Virus record (IMG/VR): IMGVR_UViG_2645727867_000003
Strand: one strand, 5' to 3'
DNA length: 53,137 bases
From: a virus
Lineage: Duplodnaviria; Heunggongvirae; Uroviricota; Caudoviricetes
Below the pieces are notes generated by a model. It was not told the origin of the DNA and ran no database searches. It worked only from the letters and a program-made list of their open reading frames with translations. Shown here one piece after another: positions 31,854 through 43,329 of this stretch (position 1 is its first letter; each line of letters begins with the position of its first letter). A program made the position numbers and the translations under genes.

Positions 31854-31859
31854 ACATGT

Positions 31860-31885
31860 AAAAAGGCTCCTGCGATGAGGAGCCT
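31860..31885 (-). terminator. minus-strand intrinsic terminator convergent with the sRNA-A terminator
   Basis: Hairpin GGCTCCT-N6-AGGAGCC followed by T5 on the minus strand. Confidence 0.5.
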
Positions 31886-31899
31886 GGATGTATGCCTAA

Positions 31900-32900
31900 T
31901 CTCTGTATACTGCATGGTGCCGGGTGCCTCCCGGTGAACAAATGTCCGTGATATCAGTCGGCCACACAGGAAATGATACGATATCACCCCTCCGCACAGG
32001 GGGATTCACCATGCCCGTTTTTTTTAACAAACTCCTCATCAATCAGACAATCATCAACCTCATGAATTGTGAGGAATTTAACATTTCACAACACAGCCTT
32101 TTCCCTGCATAAAAAAGCCCCTCCGGAGAGGGGCTTCGCTACGTGTCTGTTAACCATATGCATGATGCCGGGTGCCTCCCGGTGAGTTCAGTATCAGCAC
32201 CTGAACCCGCACAGAAAGGATAGAGTAGAAACACCTGCGCTGATATGCCCCTCCGCTCAGGGGGATTCACCATGCAGAACTTTTTTAACAACTCCCCGTA
32301 AGACAGGCAAGCATCAACCATCTGAACTGTGAGGAATTTAACATTTCACAACACAGCGTTTTTCCTGCATAAAAAAGCCCCTCAGGAGAGGGGCTGACAC
32401 TGCGTATCTGTATCATCATGAACATGGTGCCGGGTGCCTCCCGGTGAGTCCAGTCTGGTGTCCCTGAACCCGCGTTTGCATTGCCTACAACAGAAAAGAT
32501 GCAAATCACACCAGTCGCCCCTCCGCACAGGGGGATTCACCATGCAGAACTTTTTTAACAACTCCCCCTCAGACAGGCAAGCATCAACCACCTGAACTGT
32601 GAGGAATTTAACACTTAACAACACAGCCTTTTCCCGCACAAAAAAAGCCCCTCCGGAGAGGGGCCGATCGCTATGTATACACCATAAGCAGCATAGTGCC
32701 GGGTGCCTCCCGGTAGATTCAGCCTGACTACTGAATCTGCGTATTGTGACCATCGCTATGGAGACCATGTCAGACGCCCCTCCGCACAGGGGGATTCACT
32801 ATGCTGGCTCGTTTTTACAAGACTTCCATCGATCAGACAATAGCCCATCAACCGAATTGTGAGTCATTTAACATTTCCATGAGGTAACTGATATCCAGCT
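31900..32900 (-). repeat. tandem array of four ~260-bp structured repeat units (candidate minus-strand sRNA genes), each with a hypervariable internal hairpin
   Basis: Each unit has conserved blocks GTGCCGGGTGCCTCCCGGTGA, CCCCTCCGCACAGGGGGATTCACCATGC, GAATTGTGAGGAATTTAACATTTCACAACACAG and a minus-strand terminator GCCCCTC-CGGA-GAGGGGC plus T6 (32111-32134, 32371-32394, 32641-32664). A 50-70-nt unit-specific segment lies between the first two blocks. Confidence 0.6.
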
Positions 32901-33122
32901 AACAATCATCTACAATGGACGAAGCCAGTTCCAGAACTTGCCCACGGTACAGCAACAACCACTGCATACACATAATTACCACCGGACTCTCTGAACCTGC
33001 CTCCTGGCTAACCCCAGATACAACACCACCAGTCACAAAAGCATCTTATTCTGAAGTACAACTGCCGTGCGGCAGATACTAAAAGCGCCTGTATGTAACA
33101 ACATAAATATACAGGATATGTT

Positions 33123-33401
33123 TTATCCACGGGATATAATTTTGATTTCATCAAAACCGTTACTACCTGCAATTCTGTTGTACTCCTGAACAAGACTCAG
33201 TAACTCCGAATTAGCCGCGGTGAACTCCTCACAGACGTTCCGAAGTGCATCTACATCCAGAAGAACCATCTCCTGACCTGAACGTCGATCAGGGGTACAA
33301 AATAAAACTGTCAGACGACTGAAGACCTTTGTTCGTTCCACATTGACGGCTTCAATACGCTGTAACAGTTGGCTACATCTGATTTTCTCATCAATATTCA
33401 C
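33123..33401 (-). CDS. hypothetical protein (92 aa) downstream of the AraC-family regulator
   Basis: GTG-start ORF in an AT-rich segment. Weak SD. Confidence 0.3.
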   Translation of the reverse strand: MNIDEKIRCSQLLQRIEAVNVERTKVFSRLTVLFCTPDRRSGQEMVLLDVDALRNVCEEFTAANSELLSLVQEYNRIAGSNGFDEIKIISRG

Positions 33402-33489
33402 GCAAACACCAAATGATTATAACTTTTTATGCTGAACACATTCAGACTATATCTAATACAGTCAATCAATATATGCCTGATGAAAAACA

Positions 33490-34215
33490 TCAGATAACGT
33501 CTGCTTTCTGCAAATATGCATAGCTCTCAGGTGGTGCACCATAATACTGGTGAAATACAGAAATGAAGTAGGACTTACTTGAGTAACCACATTTTTCCGC
33601 TATCGCTTGTCCACACTCTCGCTGGAAACATACAAGATTAACAGCAACACGCATTCGCTCCTCCAGCAACAACCGACTAAAGCTATAACCTTCATCCTTA
33701 AGTTTTCGCTTCAACAAGCTTTCGCTCATATGCAATTGTAATGCAATCACACCAAGCATCCAGCCTGCCGATATGTCGGTCTGAATTATAGCCCTTACTT
33801 TACAGCTGATATTATTTACAGCACCGGACAAAAATAATGGCAGACGTCTGTCTGTTGCAAATAAGGAGATACATGAAAATGCGGTTATAACAGAGAAATC
33901 CTTCAAAGTATCACTGGATTCACTATGCTGGGTTATTAAAGCCTCCGCCAGTTCCGTATTGTAAATATCAGACATCAAATAAAGAGGAATTTTTGTCGGT
34001 GTATACTCCGTCAGTTCACACTCCCTTTCCAGATACTGATTGACGACGCTGTTACTTATATCTGCCATTTTCACTCTGTCGGCATAAGCACAGAAAAGCC
34101 CTCTTATATTTCTGGCAACAAGCATAACACTTCCGGCATCGAGTGAAACTTTTTCTTTTTCAAGAAAAATATCTATCGGATAGCGAATCAGGACCACAGA
34201 GCAGGCAACATCCAT
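33490..34215 (-). CDS. AraC/XylS-family transcriptional regulator (GadX-like C-terminal HTH)
   Basis: C-terminal …LLKRKLKDEGYSFSRLLLEERMRVAVNL…CGYSSKSYFISVFHQYYGAPP… is an AraC-type double HTH. AT-rich codon usage. Confidence 0.8.
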   Translation of the reverse strand: MDVACSVVLIRYPIDIFLEKEKVSLDAGSVMLVARNIRGLFCAYADRVKMADISNSVVNQYLERECELTEYTPTKIPLYLMSDIYNTELAEALITQHSESSDTLKDFSVITAFSCISLFATDRRLPLFLSGAVNNISCKVRAIIQTDISAGWMLGVIALQLHMSESLLKRKLKDEGYSFSRLLLEERMRVAVNLVCFQRECGQAIAEKCGYSSKSYFISVFHQYYGAPPESYAYLQKADVI

Positions 34216-34282
34216 TTTGAATTAACCTTAGCAAAAAGACTTAATACCAGTATATTCCAAAAATGGCATTTTGGGAGATTAC

Positions 34283-34455
34283 TTCTGCAAACCGCTCCCG
34301 CTAAATACATCCCTGATTTCCTGCGCAGTCTGTTCAAAACGCCCGGTATCCAGCTCAACGCCAGTTGCACGACGCCCCAGCGCCATCGCTGCTTTAACTG
34401 CCGAACCCTACCCCATGAAGAAATCTGCAACCAGGACACCCAGCAGAAGGGAGAC
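34283..34455 (-). pseudogene. remnant 3' fragment of a DNA methyltransferase gene (paralogous to 35819-35990)
   Basis: Nucleotide alignment to the 3' end of the intact methylase gene. Translation …ADFFMG*GSAVKAAMALGRRATGVELDTGRFEQ… carries an in-frame TAG. Confidence 0.55.
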
Positions 34456-34486
34456 TACAGCCCGCAATTCGAAAAAGGCCACGCTA

Positions 34487-34516
34487 TTGCGCAGAGTGAT
34501 TACTGTCGGGTATTAT
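34487..34516 (+). promoter_or_regulatory. sigma70-like promoter (TTGCGC-18 nt-TATTAT), paralog of 31740-31769
   Basis: Identical hexamers and spacing. Confidence 0.45.
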
Positions 34517-34523
34517 TCGCCAG

Positions 34524-34591
34524 TTGAAGTATTACTTCACGTTTTATTGTTTATTCCTTGCCGCCCGCGTCTCCCAGCGCGGGCTTTTTTT
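34524..34591 (+). ncRNA. candidate ~70-nt sRNA, paralog B
   Basis: Same conserved core as paralog A. The terminator stem is changed in a compensatory way (GCCCGCG-N8-CGCGGGC plus T7). Confidence 0.4.
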
Positions 34592-34599
34592 GTCCATAA

Positions 34600-34860
34600 G
34601 AAAGCCCCTCCGGAGAGGGGCTGAAGCCGCATTTCTGTATCACCATGAGCATGGTGCCGGGTGCCTCCCGGTGAGTTCAGCCCGGTGACACCAAACCCGC
34701 GTATTCTCGCTTACGATCATCAAAGAGATCATACCGTTCACCAGTCGCCCCTCCGCACAGGGGGATTCACCATGCGAAATTTTTTTAACAAATGCTCAGT
34801 CTGACAGGCAACTGTCAACTTACTGAATTGTGAGGGATTTAACACTTCACAGCACAATAT
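34600..34860 (-). repeat. solitary fifth copy of the ~260-bp structured repeat unit
   Basis: Contains all four conserved blocks plus its own variable segment. Minus-strand terminator at 34605-34628. Confidence 0.55.
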
Positions 34861-35617: not shown

Positions 35618-35694
35618 TGGACCGCCATCGAGGACTCGAACCCCGCGCAGCCAGCTTCGAAGGCTGGCGCTCTATCCCGATGAGCTAATGGCGG
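35618..35694 (-). tRNA. tRNA-Arg (anticodon UCG)
   Basis: Hand-folded cloverleaf: acceptor CCGCCAT/ATGGCGG, D-stem GCTC/GAGC, anticodon loop CUUCGAA, T-loop TTCGAGT, 3' CCA encoded. Confidence 0.7.
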
Positions 35695-35702
35695 TATGGA
35701 TA

Positions 35703-35778
35703 TGGTGGCCCTTGCTGGATTTGAACCAGCGACCTGGCGATTATGAGTCGCTCGCTCTCACCACTGAGCTAAAGGGCC
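35703..35778 (-). tRNA. tRNA with CAU anticodon, ileX-like (tRNA-Ile2 read via lysidine, or Met)
   Basis: GGCCCTTTAGCTCAGTGGTGAGAGCGAGCGACTCATAATCGCCAGGTCGCTGGTTCAAATCCAGCAAGGGCCACCA closely resembles E. coli ileX as recalled from memory. Confidence 0.8.
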
Positions 35779-35818: not shown

Positions 35819-36880
35819 TCATCCATTCTGACTGACTAAATCCTGTACTTCCCTGACCGTCTGCTCAAAACGTTCAGTCTCCAGCTCAACGCCAGTTGCA
35901 CGACGCCCCAGCGCCATCGCGGCTTTGACTGTCGAACCCGACCCCATGAAGAAATCTGCAACCAGGTCACCCGGACGACTGCTCGCACTGATTATCTGCT
36001 GCAGCATTTCTGCCGGTTTTTCGCACGGATGTTTCCCGGGATAGTACTGCACCGGTTTATGCGTCCACACATCCGTGTACGGCACCTGCGCCGTCACGCC
36101 AAAATACCGCCGCAGATGCTTATATTCACTCTGCAGTTCCGCATACTGCCGGTTCAGTGAAGTATACGTCTCCAGCAGCTGGTGGTGGGGCTTTTCCAGT
36201 TCACCCCGCTGATGCTTCTCTTCTGCCACCCGGGCAAACAGCGCCTGTAATTTCAGATAATCGCTTTCGTTCGGTAGCTGCCACTGACTGGCACTGAACC
36301 AGTGCGACACCATGTTTTTCTTTCCTGTGGCATCCACTATCTGTTTTGCCGTTATCCCCAGGGCAGCACGCGCATCACGAAAGTAAGCAATCAGCGGAGC
36401 CATCACATGCTGTTTCAGTGCCCTGCCCTTCGCCTCATAGCCATCATCTTTCGAGCGATACGGCCCCTGATAGTGTTCCGCGAACAGAATGCGCTCTGTG
36501 GCGGGGAAATACGCCCTCAGGCTTTCCTTGTTGCACCCGTTCCAGCGTCCGGACGGCTTCGCCCAGATAATATGGTTCAGCACACTGAAGCGTTCACGCA
36601 TCATGATTTCAATGTCAGACGCCAGGCGATGGCCACAGAACAGGTAAAGACTTCCGGCAGGTTTCAGCACCCGCCAGAACTGCGCCAGACACTGGTCCAG
36701 CCACTTCAGGTAATCATCGTCGCCCTTCCACTGGTTATCCCAGCCCTCAGGCTTCACTTTAAAGTACGGCGGGTCCGTGACTATCAGGTCAACAGAATTT
36801 TCGGGTAACGACCGGATAAATTCCAGGCAGTCGGCGTTGATTAACTCACAACTGGATATTTTTACAGTATTAAACTTGGA
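35819..36880 (-). CDS. DNA N6-adenine/N4-cytosine methyltransferase; the conserved N-terminus lies upstream of the first canonical start codon
   Basis: In-frame translation upstream of the called GTG start reads …ELINADCLEFIRSLPENSVDLIVTDPPYFKVKPEGW…, including the DPPY motif. No ATG/GTG/TTG between the upstream stop (36881-36883) and 36757. Confidence 0.7.
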   Translation of the reverse strand, partial: SKFNTVKISSCELINADCLEFIRSLPENSVDLIVTDPPYFKVKPEGWDNQWKGDDDYLKWLDQCLAQFWRVLKPAGSLYLFCGHRLASDIEIMMRERFSVLNHIIWAKPSGRWNGCNKESLRAYFPATERILFAEHYQGPYRSKDDGYEAKGRALKQHVMAPLIAYFRDARAALGITAKQIVDATGKKNMVSHWFSASQWQLPNESDYLKLQALFARVAEEKHQRGELEKPHHQLLETYTSLNRQYAELQSEYKHLRRYFGVTAQVPYTDVWTHKPVQYYPGKHPCEKPAEMLQQIISASSRPGDLVADFFMGSGSTVKAAMALGRRATGVELETERFEQTVREVQDLVSQNG

Positions 36881-37399: not shown

Positions 37400-38113
37400 T
37401 TAACGTACTCTGACAGTATTAATTTCAAAATCATTAATATTTCCGCTATTAAATATAACGAATTTCTTACCCCCACTCCTGTATGATTTCGATAACACCA
37501 GACGATCATCATAGCGCGCAATAATGTAATACCATACATTCTCATAGTGGACCGCCTGATATTCCCTCTTAAACTGTGGTTTGTACCAACCGGCAATAAG
37601 AGAGAATGCCCAGAAATAAATCATAAACCCAGCCATCATGAACTCAATTCGGTGATGGCGAATAACAGACATTTCCGAAAAACATTTGACTGAAACAAGT
37701 CTTCTTCCAGACCTGACAAAAAGCGTGATTGCAAAGGCAGCAAGAACGCAGAAAATCAGTACATCTGGCTCAACATGCTGATGAATTACAGAAAACTCCA
37801 GAACAGGTGGAATAAAAAGCAGCAATATCGCGAGAAAAAGCCGGATAAAACTCAAATTTTGTATATTGCGCTTTTGTTTTATGCCCAAAAAGAAAACAAT
37901 ACCAACTCCCCATCCAATAAGGAATATAACAATAACTGTCACAGCATAAAACAAACTTCGTGCTACATCATCGACACCAGCCCCGACAACCCACCATGGA
38001 AAGCCATAGTAAAATGAAGTACCCCATCCATAGAAATAAGCGCTCCCCCATCCGAGACAGCCCATATAAGCAACAAAAAGTGAAGAGTTTCTGAGCAGAG
38101 CACTGTCATCCAT
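37400..38113 (-). CDS. polytopic inner-membrane protein of unknown function (AT-rich accessory gene)
   Basis: 237 aa with several Trp/Gly/Phe-rich hydrophobic segments. First gene downstream of the late promoter. Confidence 0.55.
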   Translation of the reverse strand: MDDSALLRNSSLFVAYMGCLGWGSAYFYGWGTSFYYGFPWWVVGAGVDDVARSLFYAVTVIVIFLIGWGVGIVFFLGIKQKRNIQNLSFIRLFLAILLLFIPPVLEFSVIHQHVEPDVLIFCVLAAFAITLFVRSGRRLVSVKCFSEMSVIRHHRIEFMMAGFMIYFWAFSLIAGWYKPQFKREYQAVHYENVWYYIIARYDDRLVLSKSYRSGGKKFVIFNSGNINDFEINTVRVR

Positions 38114-38244
38114 AGTAACACCATTAACAACTCAAAAATATCAACACACATTACATAACAAATTGGATTCCATGCAGTCAAGGGGCGTCATTGATGGAGA
38201 AAGTATTGGCACAATCGTCATCACGTTTAATGTCTATGCCATTT

Positions 38245-38266
38245 TTTGGGGGGTAAAAAACCCGCT
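38245..38266 (-). terminator. tR'-like terminator about 60-80 nt downstream of the late promoter
   Basis: Hairpin CCCG-N8-CGGG followed by T6 on the minus strand. Confidence 0.4.
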
Positions 38267-38330
38267 CGGTCACGGGTTTTAGTGGCTTTGCCATCACGTA
38301 TAATAACGGCAAAATATCAGATTTACACGA

Positions 38331-38359
38331 AATATATGCCTTTTTATCTACTTTTGCAA
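38331..38359 (-). promoter_or_regulatory. candidate late promoter pR' (TTGCAA-17 nt-TATATT) immediately downstream of Q
   Basis: Near-consensus hexamers with 17-nt spacer, 8 nt after the Q-like stop codon. Confidence 0.5.
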
Positions 38360-38366
38360 TACTTTG

Positions 38367-39032
38367 CTATGAAAATGCCGCCTTTTGTTTTGAACGTGTT
38401 CCCTCCACCAACAATAAAGCTTCACTATCCAGCCGATGAAAAATGTGTTTCATTGCAACCCAGTGACCAGTAAATGTCTTGGACCAGTTTTTGGTTGTTA
38501 CTCCCACCAGTAACGCCAGTTCCTGGTATTCGTAACCTTCCCCACCAAAAAACTCAGCTTTTACCGCCTGCGCCGCCAACCAGATCAACGTCTTCAGGCG
38601 CACCAGAGTTTTTCCTGCAATTTTTCTGGTACCGGATTGAGCATTAAATTCAGTCCACGCCCACTGCGTTATCGCGATCTGATGCTCCCAGCAAATGCTA
38701 CCGCTGTAACACCACAGCAGCCAGGCTTTATGATGTTCTTCAAGAGACAGAACGGCGCGTCGCCATGATGATGTCGAAAACTCAACCGGACTGACCAGGG
38801 CAATTGATGAGCCTTTCGCCAGTGATTGTTTGCCCGGGATCGGGGGATTATCCCGCGTGATCATTTTTCCGGTTACCTCATCGCGGTAACGAATTTTTTT
38901 GCGTCTGTAACGCCCTGTATCGAACAGGGCATTTTCCTGCCAGACTTCCAGCTGGCCTTTTGTCGACCCACTAAGATCCGCAGTGGCAATCATGAGTTGC
39001 TCACGAACAAACTGTAAATACTGGTTATTCAT
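38367..39032 (-). CDS. late-gene antiterminator Q-like protein
   Basis: ~220-aa protein directly upstream of the pR'/tR'-like module and downstream of rusA. Family assignment is from position and size. Confidence 0.55.
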   Translation of the reverse strand: MNNQYLQFVREQLMIATADLSGSTKGQLEVWQENALFDTGRYRRKKIRYRDEVTGKMITRDNPPIPGKQSLAKGSSIALVSPVEFSTSSWRRAVLSLEEHHKAWLLWCYSGSICWEHQIAITQWAWTEFNAQSGTRKIAGKTLVRLKTLIWLAAQAVKAEFFGGEGYEYQELALLVGVTTKNWSKTFTGHWVAMKHIFHRLDSEALLLVEGTRSKQKAAFS

Positions 39033-42009: not shown

Positions 42010-42165
42010 TTACTCCTCAGGTTCGTAAGCTGTGAAGACAGCGACCTCCGTCTGGCCGGTTCGGATTCGTACCTCGCAGAGGTCTTTCCTCGTTACCAGT
42101 GCCGTCATTATGACGGTTAAACAGATGACAATCAGGGCGATTAACATCGCCTTTTGCTGCTTCAT
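42010..42165 (-). CDS. hokD: Hok/Gef-family type I toxin (HokD/RelF-like)
   Basis: MKQQKAMLIALIVICLTVIMTALVTRKDLCEVRIRTGQTEVAVFTAYEPEE. SD AGGAG upstream. Confidence 0.8.
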   Translation of the reverse strand: MKQQKAMLIALIVICLTVIMTALVTRKDLCEVRIRTGQTEVAVFTAYEPEE

Positions 42166-42436
42166 AGCCTGCTTCTCCTTGCCTTTCGGCACGTAAGAGG
42201 CTAACCTACATGTGCAAAGCATGAAATTGGCCTCAGATTAATGTTAAGCGTCCTGCAAGACGCGTAATGTTAACTGGGGCTTTTCTCTGTCTGCCTTACG
42301 GCGGCATGCCCGAGGCAGACAGCCTCAAGCACCCGCAGCAATTCTACTTAACTCTTCTTTCCCCGCAAATCATTTTATCCCCGATGGTAATGTTCTCCCG
42401 ATATGGGAATTCCCATATCAAGGTTAACTCAATCGG

Positions 42437-42988
42437 TTAAAGCTCCATTAATTTTCCGGCCAGTTCATCTCGTGGCATTACCAGCCATCCGCGCGATTTA
42501 AGCAAAGCCAGGGCTTCTTCAACCGTCACCAGCTGGCCTGGCGCATAACTTCGGATGAAGGCGGTTTTATCGTCACGGATCGCCAGGTGAAAATCGATAT
42601 TCATTTTTCCCATAGCCCGCTCTTTCTCGTACTGGTTGAAGTAACTGTCTTCGAGTTTTTCGAATACTTCCCACGCCTGATCGGTTTCGAGCATTTTTGC
42701 ATGACGGGCTGCTCCGCGTTCTGTCCAGAGGATGAGAGTGCGGGTTTTGGGAGAAATTTTCACCTCATTTTGCGACTCGTTTAAAACTAGTCGCAAATTT
42801 TTGAGCTCATCACCAACAGCTTTAAAGAAGTGTTTTCCCTCAATAAATCGAGATTTATTTTCATGGTGATTCTGCTGTATACGGATTGCTTCTGTTCCGT
42901 AAAGGCGGGCGAGTAACTCAGTTGTGATTACAGGAATCTGGTTATAAGTGACAGGGGAAAGGTTTTTGACAGTAACTTGAGTCGTCAT
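42437..42988 (-). CDS. ORF6N-domain antirepressor-like protein (intact paralog)
   Basis: N-terminal …ITTELLARLYGTE…RFIEGKHFFKAVGDELK… ORF6N-like. 183 aa. Confidence 0.6.
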   Translation of the reverse strand: MTTQVTVKNLSPVTYNQIPVITTELLARLYGTEAIRIQQNHHENKSRFIEGKHFFKAVGDELKNLRLVLNESQNEVKISPKTRTLILWTERGAARHAKMLETDQAWEVFEKLEDSYFNQYEKERAMGKMNIDFHLAIRDDKTAFIRSYAPGQLVTVEEALALLKSRGWLVMPRDELAGKLMEL

Positions 42989-43329
42989 GATAACGCCCTC
43001 TGGTTGATGAATTTAACTATCACCACCTTCAGGTCTCAATCATCAGGTGGCGAGACGTACAGGGTTGAGACTACCGGATCAACCAACCGGCCAGCCTTTC
43101 GGCTGCCCCATACGCCTCACCATAATTCAGATGTGCGTGCGCATACGACAATAAAAAACACGCTCGCGGCGTGTGTCTGTCGCGGTTGAATATCCGGGGT
43201 CTCAATCCCGACGGTCAACTCGACCGTGCGGTGAATATAGCCCCGGATTAGTAATTACGTCAACCCCAGCGGCAAATCGAATAAACCACCAGCGCTACCG
43301 CCATTGCAACTCCTGCCGTTACGAATGCC

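What the first reader, a model, noticed from the sequence alone, without database searches (positions are those of the whole stretch)
38245..38366. pR'/tR'-like module after the Q-like gene predicts a short terminated leader RNA
A near-consensus promoter (TTGCAA-17-TATATT) lies 8 nt after the Q-like stop and is followed ~60-80 nt later by a hairpin and T6. This resembles the lambda pR'-6S RNA-tR' arrangement and supports the Q assignment. The short RNA could itself be regulatory, as terminated late-promoter leaders in Stx phages have been reported to be.
Basis: partly seen in the sequence, partly recalled or inferred. Interest (0 to 1): 0.4.

Follow-up and report, generated by a model that had tools for sequence, protein, structure and literature searches.

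The report
Phage-82-type late promoter, IsrJ-like leader RNA
This is the ordinary late-gene switch of a phage-82-type prophage: a promoter, a built-in pause site and a terminator just after the Q antiterminator gene. The roughly 70-nt RNA it should make is an unannotated E. coli relative of the Salmonella small RNA IsrJ.

Summary
On the minus strand, 7 nt after the stop of a Q gene (Pfam PF06323, 77% identical to phage 82 Q), lie TTGCAA-17-TATATT and then an intrinsic terminator (AAAACCCGU...GCGGGUUUUUU). The predicted RNA is 70-72 nt (38324/38326 to 38255), not about 80.

The transcribed region has TGaTATTTT at +6..+14, GCC at +15-17, and an AT-rich run ending in U at +25. These match the published description of the sigma-70-dependent pause site of phage 82 pR'.

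The same layout follows Q82-family genes in about 140 loci from about 50 Enterobacteriaceae species. The terminator shows compensatory changes.

Rfam's isrJ model (Salmonella Gifsy-1 sRNA) passes its threshold at this position in 15 of 20 related loci. It aligns full-length to the window RNA at 20 bits, below the 37-bit threshold. A model trained without E. coli sequences finds the window RNA at E = 7e-7.

So this is a known kind of module, a diverged and unannotated member.

The parts
38367..39032 (-). Q antiterminator gene of the phage 82 family, 221 aa including the stop TAG at 38369-38367. The ATG at 39032 is the probable start.
   Evidence: PF06323 at E = 5.8e-90. 77% identical to phage 82 Q and to phage 434 Q over 220-221 aa. 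It ends 8 codons before the stop used in 99 of 141 related loci.
38354..38359 (-). -35 hexamer TTGCAA of the late promoter pR'.
   Evidence: The first three bases, T, T and G, are invariant and C and A nearly so in 79 distinct related promoters. The authentic phage 82 record has the same hexamer.
38331..38336 (-). -10 hexamer TATATT, 17 nt after the -35 hexamer.
   Evidence: A at -11 and T at -7 are invariant in 79 distinct promoters.
38324..38326 (-). Inferred transcription start. It is A at 38324 by phage 82 numbering, or G at 38326 by analogy with the primer-extension 5' end of IsrJ.
   Evidence: Inference. Placing +1 at 38324 puts GCC at +15-17 and U at +25, as described for 82 pR'. The 74-nt IsrJ starts 2 nt upstream of the equivalent A.
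38311..38319 (-). Sigma-70-dependent pause element TGaTATTTT at +6..+14: a -10-like hexamer with a TG extension.
   Evidence: Sequence. It fits the description of 82 pR' in PMC5001585. T+9, A+10, T+11 and T+14 are invariant, and TG at +6/+7 is present in 74-78 of 79.
38300..38310 (-). GCC at +15-17, then the AT-rich stretch GTTATTAT at +18-25. The predicted pause site is U at +25 (38300).
   Evidence: Sequence set against the roles of +15-17 GCC, the +18-25 AT-rich stretch and U at +25 in 82 pR'. C+17 is kept in 74 of 79 and T+25 in 72 of 79.
38286..38314 (-). Hairpin 1 of the leader RNA (+11..+39): 12 pairs including G-U pairs, with a 5-nt loop.
   Evidence: RNAfold. z = -4.0 against shuffles of the 3' part, with 2 in 1000 shuffles as stable. 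It aligns to the first helix of Rfam isrJ with all five pairs kept, one changed on both sides. It is not universal: absent from the short class such as phage 434, and weak in IsrJ itself.
38255..38280 (-). Intrinsic terminator tR': AAAACCCGU-GACCGA-GCGGGUUUU, with six U in all.
   Evidence: RNAfold. Across 64 distinct leaders 91.7% of cells pair, 7 of 9 pairs change on both sides, and 0 of 500 shuffles reach the covariation score. The equivalent hairpin is annotated as a terminator in the phage 434 record.
38255..38324 (-). Predicted 70-72-nt terminated leader RNA, a homologue of IsrJ.
   Evidence: Rfam isrJ aligns full-length at 20 bits, E = 0.1, below the threshold of 37. Model R1, trained on 40 leaders from other genera, scores 39.9 bits with E = 7e-7 and gives the only significant hit in the window.

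Best explanation
This is the late-gene control module of a phage-82-type lambdoid prophage.

**In the lysogen (inferred from the family).** Host RNA polymerase with sigma-70 starts at pR' (about 38324). It pauses near +25, because sigma-70 rebinds the -10-like TGaTATTTT at +6..+14. It then escapes and stops at the intrinsic terminator, releasing a 70-72-nt RNA with two hairpins.

**After induction (inferred).** The Q protein encoded just upstream binds the paused complex and rides with the polymerase. This makes the polymerase resistant to tR' and to at least six further terminator-like hairpins on the same strand. Transcription then reaches the accessory genes, the tRNAs, the lysis genes about 11 kb downstream and the structural genes.

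**The short RNA.** It is the E. coli counterpart of Salmonella IsrJ.

**Shown here:** the sequence anatomy, its conservation, the terminator covariation and the homologies.

**Inferred:** promoter activity, pausing, Q loading and any function of the RNA.
For: - **Q family.** PF06323 and 77% identity to phage 82 Q.
- **Promoter.** The -35 hexamer and early spacer match the end of the authentic phage 82 record.
- **Pause site.** The extended -10-like element, GCC at +15-17, AT-rich +18-25 and U at +25 fit the description of 82 pR' in PMC5001585.
- **Chance.** The composite motif is unique in the window, with 0 matches in 100 shuffles.
- **Conservation.** The same architecture follows Q82-family genes in 80 viral contigs and 58 loci from about 50 species. 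This holds even where Q is only 57-65% identical. The invariant positions are those sigma-70 reads.
- **Terminator.** Conserved as a structure while its sequence is exchanged.
- **Downstream genes.** Endolysin, spanin and terminase lie on the same strand, with further terminators in between.
- **IsrJ link.** Rfam isrJ passes its threshold at the same position in 15 of 20 related loci. In Gifsy-1 IsrJ is preceded by the same promoter and pause element.
- **Experimental support from the homologue.** IsrJ's 5' end was mapped by primer extension and it is made from its own promoter (PMC2330248). It is transcribed in all conditions tested in lysogens (PMC7067206).
- **Independent model.** R1 finds the window RNA at E = 7e-7.
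Against: - No expression data exist for this prophage.
- The promoter match is only 9 of 12 and alone is not above chance.
- I could not obtain the authentic 82 pR' sequence beyond the Q stop codon. The match to its pause site rests on a verbal description.
- The sequence of the Q82 binding element is unknown to me, so that feature is untested.
- This Q lacks the last 8 residues found in phage 82 Q and in 99 of 141 relatives. Its activity is therefore not guaranteed.
- The Rfam isrJ score is below the family threshold (20 against 37 bits).
Confidence: 0.88

Rival explanations
1. The main biological role of the element is the RNA itself. On this reading it is a trans-acting, Hfq-associated small RNA like IsrJ or StxS that regulates host or prophage mRNAs in the lysogen. 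This does not exclude the antitermination role.
For: - It is homologous to IsrJ, whose deletion lowers invasion and effector translocation in Salmonella (PMC2330248; homology).
- StxS shows that a terminated pR' leader can be a regulator.
- The RNA is stably folded, with a Rho-independent terminator and a U tail.
- 1823 of 5426 complete E. coli genomes have a match to the module, with up to 5 places per genome.
Against: - No target, Hfq-binding or expression data exist for the E. coli form.
- The best-conserved part, the 5' 17 nt, is already explained by its DNA-level role in pausing.
- The rest of the RNA, including hairpin 1, the spacer and the terminator sequence, is swapped freely between lineages. 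A conserved base-pairing regulator would not be expected to vary this way.
Confidence: 0.2
2. The module is a relic. The promoter still makes the short RNA, but this Q (8 residues shorter at the C terminus) or the prophage as a whole is defective. Late genes are then never antiterminated from here.
For: - The Q ORF stops 8 codons early compared with 82, 434 and 99 of 141 loci.
- Clearly decayed copies exist elsewhere. L089/L090 have a 1-nt deletion after the -10 hexamer, a mutated pause element and a broken stem.
Against: - The short Q form is shared by 36 loci with otherwise intact modules.
- It is at least 80% covered, mostly at 99-100% identity, in 181 complete genomes, which suggests it is tolerated.
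- The promoter, pause element and terminator here carry none of the lesions seen in decayed copies.
- Lysis and packaging genes downstream are intact ORFs.
Confidence: 0.1
3. There is no promoter. The hairpin and T-run only terminate the early operon that includes Q, and the promoter-like hexamers are a chance match.
For: A 9-of-12 promoter match is common by chance. A terminator after the last early gene would be plausible.
Against: - The hexamers, their 17-nt spacing and the downstream -10-like element are invariant across Q genes only 57% identical, while the flanking non-coding sequence diverges.
- In Gifsy-1 the same block is separated from Q by an inserted module and still yields IsrJ, with a mapped 5' end and its own promoter.
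Confidence: 0.02

Closest known systems
Phage 82 late promoter pR' with its +25 sigma-70-dependent pause and downstream terminator (Roberts laboratory system)
   Same: - The Q family is the same, at 77% identity.
- The -35 TTGCAA and the start of the spacer are the same.
- An extended -10-like element, GCC at +15-17, an AT-rich +18-25 stretch and U at +25 are all present.
- A short terminated RNA is made ahead of the late genes.
   Different: - The Q ORF here ends 10 nt before the -35 hexamer, whereas in 82 it ends 14 nt after the first base of the hexamer, overlapping it.
- The spacer and body of the leader differ in sequence.
- About 11 kb of accessory genes and tRNAs lie between tR' and the lysis genes.
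- I could not compare the transcribed sequence of 82 itself.
IsrJ small RNA of Salmonella Gifsy-1 (Rfam RF01393)
   Same: - The promoter and pause element are the same, and the first 14 nt of the model are identical.
- Both have a 5' hairpin, an A-rich spacer and a terminator, and are about 70-75 nt.
- Both occupy the same place at the head of the late operon of a prophage with a Q82-family antiterminator.
   Different: - The window RNA scores 20 bits, below the family threshold of 37.
- The arms of hairpin 1 and the terminator sequence differ.
- In Gifsy-1 the isrK-orf45-anrP module is inserted between Q and the promoter.
- A virulence phenotype and HilA dependence are known only for Salmonella.
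Lambda pR' - 6S RNA - tR'
   Same: [quoted passage not shown]
   Different: - The Q family is unrelated (PF03589 for lambda, PF06323 here).
- Lambda pauses at +16/17 with the -10-like element 9 bp nearer the start.
- The lambda RNA is about 194 nt, against about 70 nt here.
StxS, the pR' leader small RNA of Stx phages (PMC7547250)
   Same: Both are terminated late-promoter leaders in STEC prophages. StxS is proposed as a general source of regulatory RNAs.
   Different: - StxS comes from a 258-nt leader processed by RNase E to 74 nt.
- According to the bioRxiv preprint 10.1101/651190, the 933W-type Q of Stx phages belongs to the Q21 family.
- I made no sequence comparison with StxS.

Membership tests
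Phage-82-type Q antitermination module (Q82, pR', pause, tR') | A Q protein of the Q82 family (PF06323) is encoded immediately upstream. | tested here: met
   PF06323 at E = 5.8e-90. 77% identity to phage 82 Q over 221 aa.
Phage-82-type Q antitermination module (Q82, pR', pause, tR') | A sigma-70 promoter lies at the 3' end of Q. | tested here: met
   TTGCAA-17-TATATT. The same -35 hexamer and early spacer occur in the phage 82 record. The key positions are invariant in 79 distinct relatives. Promoter activity itself cannot be tested with these tools.
Phage-82-type Q antitermination module (Q82, pR', pause, tR') | A promoter-proximal pause site with a -10-like element carrying a TG extension, GCC at +15-17, an AT-rich +18-25 stretch and U at +25. 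| tested here: met
   TGaTATTTT at +6..+14, GCC at +15-17, GTTATTAT at +18-25, set against the description in PMC5001585. Conserved across loci. Pausing itself was not tested.
Phage-82-type Q antitermination module (Q82, pR', pause, tR') | A Q82 binding element within -31..+30. | tested here: inconclusive
Invariant non-promoter positions that could belong to it are A-29, A-28, A-23, A-19, T-6 and T+4.
Phage-82-type Q antitermination module (Q82, pR', pause, tR') | An intrinsic terminator lies between the promoter and the late genes, and the late genes follow on the same strand. | tested here: met
   Hairpin plus U6 with covariation. Endolysin, spanin, TerS and TerL follow on the minus strand.
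Phage-82-type Q antitermination module (Q82, pR', pause, tR') | Q-dependent readthrough of the terminator. | not testable with these tools
   This needs in vitro transcription or a reporter assay.
isrJ (Rfam RF01393) | Score at or above the curated gathering threshold of 37 bits. | tested here: not met
   20.0 bits, E = 0.1, full-length alignment 1-75 at 38327..38256. Related loci of the Klebsiella, Enterobacter and Salmonella type score 41.6-93.5 bits.
isrJ (Rfam RF01393) | The same genomic position, directly downstream of the 82-type promoter and pause element at the head of the late operon. | tested here: met
   Gifsy-1 has TTGCAA-17-TATATT followed by AAATCTGATAT... = IsrJ. The same holds in 15 loci with isrJ hits above threshold.
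isrJ (Rfam RF01393) | Shared sequence and structure: the 5' UGUAAAUCUGAUAU, helix 1, and a terminator helix. | tested here: met
   The first 14 model positions are identical. All 5 pairs of helix 1 are kept, one changed on both sides. The terminator is aligned. Model R1, built without any E. coli leader, gives 39.9 bits and E = 7e-7.
isrJ (Rfam RF01393) | Hfq association and an effect on invasion or effector translocation. | not testable with these tools
   Known only for Salmonella (PMC2330248).
Lambda pR' - 6S RNA - tR' | A Q-lambda family protein (PF03589) and a pause at +16/17 with the -10-like element at about +2..+7. | tested here: not met
   Only PF06323 matches the protein. The -10-like element lies at +9..+14. 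The module works like lambda's but is not a member of that family.
StxS | Sequence homology to the Stx-phage pR' leader and RNase E processing to 74 nt. | not tested
   I made no StxS sequence comparison. It serves only as a functional analogy.

The most novel reading that the evidence does not exclude
The leaders of Q82-type prophages, including this E. coli/STEC form, are one widespread family of trans-acting small RNAs, and Salmonella IsrJ is a single member of it. Their 5' end is fixed by the pause element and so is shared by all copies. It could act as a common seed, letting the up to five copies per genome jointly tune host genes, such as type III secretion, during lysogeny.
Probability: 0.15. 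Interest if true: 0.6.

Novelty: new member of a known kind. Interest (0 to 1): 0.33.

Why it matters
For this window, the result fixes where late transcription starts. It also shows which genes sit under Q control: the 237-aa membrane protein, a methyltransferase, two tRNAs, five STnc100 repeats, and the lysis and structural genes.

More generally, the comparison shows that the Salmonella small RNA IsrJ is the terminated leader of a phage-82-type late promoter. I found no paper in the searchable library that states this. Diverged, unannotated homologues match in about a third of complete E. coli genomes.

This gives a mechanistic explanation for IsrJ's constitutive transcription in lysogens. 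It also offers a defined set of candidates for testing whether terminated late-promoter leaders are generally used as regulators, as proposed for StxS.

Tried and rejected
**Authentic 82 pR' sequence.**
- Full-text searches for fragments of the transcribed region found only unrelated hits.
- The supplements of the two relevant papers are not held.
- The phage 82 GenBank record ends at the Q stop codon.

**Solved structures.** None exists for a Q82-family protein by sequence search.

**Hairpin 1 covariation.**
- RNAalifold on 40 non-E. coli leaders recovered only the terminator.
- A test swapping 5' and 3' arms between classes was not decisive: native mean -9.6 against cross-class mean -7.4 kcal/mol.
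- The hairpin is weak in IsrJ itself.
- I therefore claim hairpin 1 only for this lineage and some others.

**CII-type motif.** TTGCN6TTGC lies on the opposite strand over the -35 hexamer and is annotated as paQ in the phage 434 record. It occurs once in the window against 3.3 expected by chance. It has no well-spaced -10 hexamer by eye, so I do not claim it as a promoter.

**The 44-aa ORF at 38312..38178.** It overlaps the leader, and an equivalent is annotated as hypothetical in phage 606R7. I rejected it as a gene because it has a TTG start, runs through the terminator, and covers a region that is exchanged between lineages.

**E. coli K-12 Qin prophage.** I checked it for a copy with published start-site data. 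Its Q gene (ydfT) has a different leader, with a lambda-like AACGATGGG element, and the family model finds no match.

Full report
**What is there.** The window is a lambdoid prophage of E. coli. Identical copies of this 1.8-kb stretch occur in STEC-type strains. Read on the minus strand, the order is:
- a DUF968/YdfU gene;
- rusA;
- a 221-aa gene that matches Pfam PF06323 at E = 6e-90 and is 77% identical over its whole length to the Q antiterminators of phages 82 and 434.

The Q stop codon TAG is at 38369-38367. Seven bases later comes TTGCAA (38359-38354), then 17 bases, then TATATT (38336-38331). From 38280 to 38255 lies AAAACCCGTGACCGAGCGGGTTTTTT. Two corrections apply: the hairpin begins 44 nt after the likely start site, and the terminated RNA is about 70-72 nt rather than about 80.

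**Is it more than chance?** A 9-of-12 promoter match is not. The scan finds 11 such sites in 11.6 kb against 14.3 expected. The transcribed region adds specificity. With +1 at A 38324, it reads AAATC-TGaTATTTT-GCC-GTTATTAT. That gives:
- a -10-like hexamer with a TG extension at +6..+14;
- GCC at +15-17;
- an AT-rich stretch at +18-25 ending in U at +25.

This is the published description of the sigma-70-dependent pause site of phage 82 pR': an extended -10-like element, a +15-17 GCC discriminator-like element, an AT-rich +18-25 stretch, and a pause at +25/+26 with U at +25 (PMC5001585). The composite of -35, -10 and TGnTATnnT at these spacings occurs once in the 53-kb window and never in 100 shuffles. 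The authentic phage 82 record ends at the Q stop codon but already shows the same TTGCAA and a similar early spacer. The predicted 71-nt RNA folds into two hairpins at -24.1 kcal/mol, z = -4.4.

**Comparative evidence.** I collected three sets of loci:
- 80 viral contigs with close relatives of this Q;
- 58 loci from about 50 Enterobacteriaceae species with Q proteins 57-90% identical;
- several sequenced phages.

In 141 of them the same block follows the Q gene. It consists of TTGCAA, 17 nt, (T/C)ATATT, TGATAT at +6..+11, a GC-rich triplet, an AT-rich run, and then an intrinsic terminator. Among 79 distinct promoter regions, the invariant or near-invariant positions are those sigma-70 reads in a promoter and in a -10-like pause element:
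- TTG at -35 to -33;
- A-11 and T-7;
- TG at +6/+7;
- T+9, A+10, T+11 and T+14.

A few further positions could belong to the Q binding element: A-29, A-28, A-23, A-19, T-6 and T+4. T+25 is kept in 72 of 79.

The terminator is conserved as a structure while its sequence is exchanged between lineages. Across 64 distinct leaders, 91.7% of cells pair, 7 of 9 pairs change on both sides, no shuffle of 500 reaches the observed covariation score, and slid controls are far lower. Predicted leader lengths cluster at 68-82 nt. A smaller class of 51-54 nt, including phage 434, lacks the first hairpin.

**The link to IsrJ.** A permissive Rfam search of the region aligned the isrJ model (RF01393) full-length to exactly the predicted RNA, at 38327..38256 on the minus strand. 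The score was 20 bits, below the family threshold of 37. In 15 of 20 related loci the same model passes its threshold (41.6-93.5 bits) directly downstream of the Q82-family gene.

In Gifsy-1, the phage where IsrJ was discovered, the gene order is Q (annotated as similar to phage 82 Q), isrK, orf45, anrP, and then TTGCAAAACTGGATTAAAACGGCTATATTTTATGTAAATCTGATATCGTCGCC... This is the same promoter and pause element running into IsrJ, followed by a tRNA and the lysis genes.

Published properties of IsrJ:
- it is 74 nt, with a 5' end mapped by primer extension and a 3' end at the last U of its terminator;
- it is expressed from its own promoter on a plasmid (PMC2330248);
- it is transcribed in all conditions tested in lysogens (PMC7067206).

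The mapped 5' end lies 2 nt upstream of the A that I call +1. The start site in the window is therefore 38324 or 38326.

As an independent test, I built a covariance model from 40 leaders of other genera, with none of the E. coli type. It finds the window RNA as the only significant hit in 53 kb: 39.9 bits, E = 7e-7, full length. So the window RNA belongs to the same family in the broad sense, but it is a diverged form that Rfam's curated model does not capture.

I found no paper in the searchable library that identifies IsrJ as a late-promoter leader. The StxS paper notes that phages 21, phi80, 82 and P22 make short RNAs from their late promoters. It names IsrK, not IsrJ, as linked to antitermination.

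**How it most likely works.** Steps that are shown:
- the Q family;
- the promoter, pause and terminator anatomy and its conservation;
- terminator covariation;
- homology to 82 pR' features and to IsrJ;
- late genes downstream on the same strand, namely endolysin 27437..26904, spanin 26422..25949, terminase 24002..21781;
- at least six more terminator-like hairpins in between.

Steps inferred from established knowledge of the Q82 and lambda systems:
- the promoter fires constitutively;
- sigma-70 rebinding holds the polymerase near +25;
- without Q, the polymerase terminates at tR' and releases the 70-72-nt RNA;
- after induction, Q loads on the paused complex and carries the polymerase through tR' and the later terminators.

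**Hairpin 1.** The first hairpin (+11..+39) is strong in this lineage, with z = -4.0 and 2 in 1000 shuffles as stable. It fits helix 1 of the isrJ model with all five pairs kept. It uses G-U pairs, so the transcript strand would be the one that folds. It is absent from the short class and weak in IsrJ itself, and my cross-class tests were not decisive. The 82 pR' fragments used in vitro end at +30, so its 3' arm is not needed for Q action in vitro. Its role is open. Possibilities are RNA stability, pause escape, or something else.

**A difference from phage 82.** In 99 of 141 loci, including 82 and 434, the Q stop codon lies 14 nt after the first base of the -35 hexamer, so the ORF overlaps the promoter. 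In the window and 35 other loci a TAG 24 nt earlier shortens Q by 8 residues. This form is widespread and is therefore probably tolerated. It is still the main reason not to take Q function for granted.

**Verdict.** It is a known kind of module, the phage 82 version of pR'/tR', in an unannotated and diverged copy. Its modest added interest lies in two points. Its RNA is a relative of IsrJ, and IsrJ itself can be read as a late-promoter leader. Whether the E. coli RNA regulates anything is untested.

Noticed in passing
window 31854-34804 (minus strand): Five tandem copies of the Rfam family STnc100 (119-172 bits), at least four ending in a terminator-like hairpin. They lie between the late promoter and the lysis genes. 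STnc100 also sits within about 100 nt after the IsrJ-like leader in L085 and L087, and further downstream in L092. It therefore seems to be a regular part of this late leader region.
   Followed up: partly
window 43043-43227 (minus strand), with the ORF at 42988..42437: An isrK match (51 bits, just above threshold) and a C4 antisense RNA match (69 bits) lie side by side upstream of a 183-aa ORF. This resembles the IsrK-orf45-AnrP, or P1 c4-ant type, antirepressor module. In Gifsy-1 that module sits between Q and the late promoter. Here it lies about 4 kb upstream of Q.
   Followed up: no
window 38354-38367 (plus strand): TTGCAATACTTTGC fits the CII-binding consensus TTGCN6TTGC on the strand opposite to Q and overlaps the -35 hexamer of pR'. 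The equivalent site is annotated as paQ in the phage 434 record. It is the only exact match in the window, but 3.3 are expected by chance, and I see no well-placed -10 hexamer.
   Followed up: partly
window 38367-38369 compared with L001, L002 and L003: The Q ORF ends 8 codons earlier than in phages 82 and 434 and most relatives, where the ORF overlaps the -35 hexamer of pR'. 36 of 141 loci share the short form.
   Followed up: yes
window 35618-35778 (minus strand): tRNA-Met (CAT) and tRNA-Arg (TCG) genes lie in the late leader region, downstream of a DNA methyltransferase gene (36757..35819). tRNA genes are also found after the leader in many related loci.
   Followed up: no
window 38140-38180 (minus strand): The block CTTGACTGCATGGAAT...TTTGTTATG, upstream of the 237-aa membrane-protein gene (38113..37400, phrog_1521), is shared with phage 434 while the surrounding sequence is not. 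It could be that gene's own promoter, which would allow expression in the lysogen independent of Q. This was not tested.
   Followed up: no
window 42160-42334 (minus strand): A sok antitoxin RNA match (117 bits) indicates a hok/sok-type toxin-antitoxin locus in the early region.
   Followed up: no
L148 3340-3470 (E. coli K-12 Qin prophage, downstream of ydfT): The K-12 Qin Q gene is followed by a different leader. It contains AACGATGGG, which from memory looks like the lambda pR' pause element, and a terminator AAAACCCGCTGATGAGCGGGTTTT. It is not matched by the Q82-leader model.
   Followed up: partly
L089 and L090 (E. coli ECMA0423, Shigella flexneri), about 1870-1980: These are decayed copies of the module. 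They have a 1-nt deletion between the -10 hexamer and the start site, TGATAC in place of TGATAT, and a broken terminator stem. They are a useful contrast with the intact copy in the window.
   Followed up: partly
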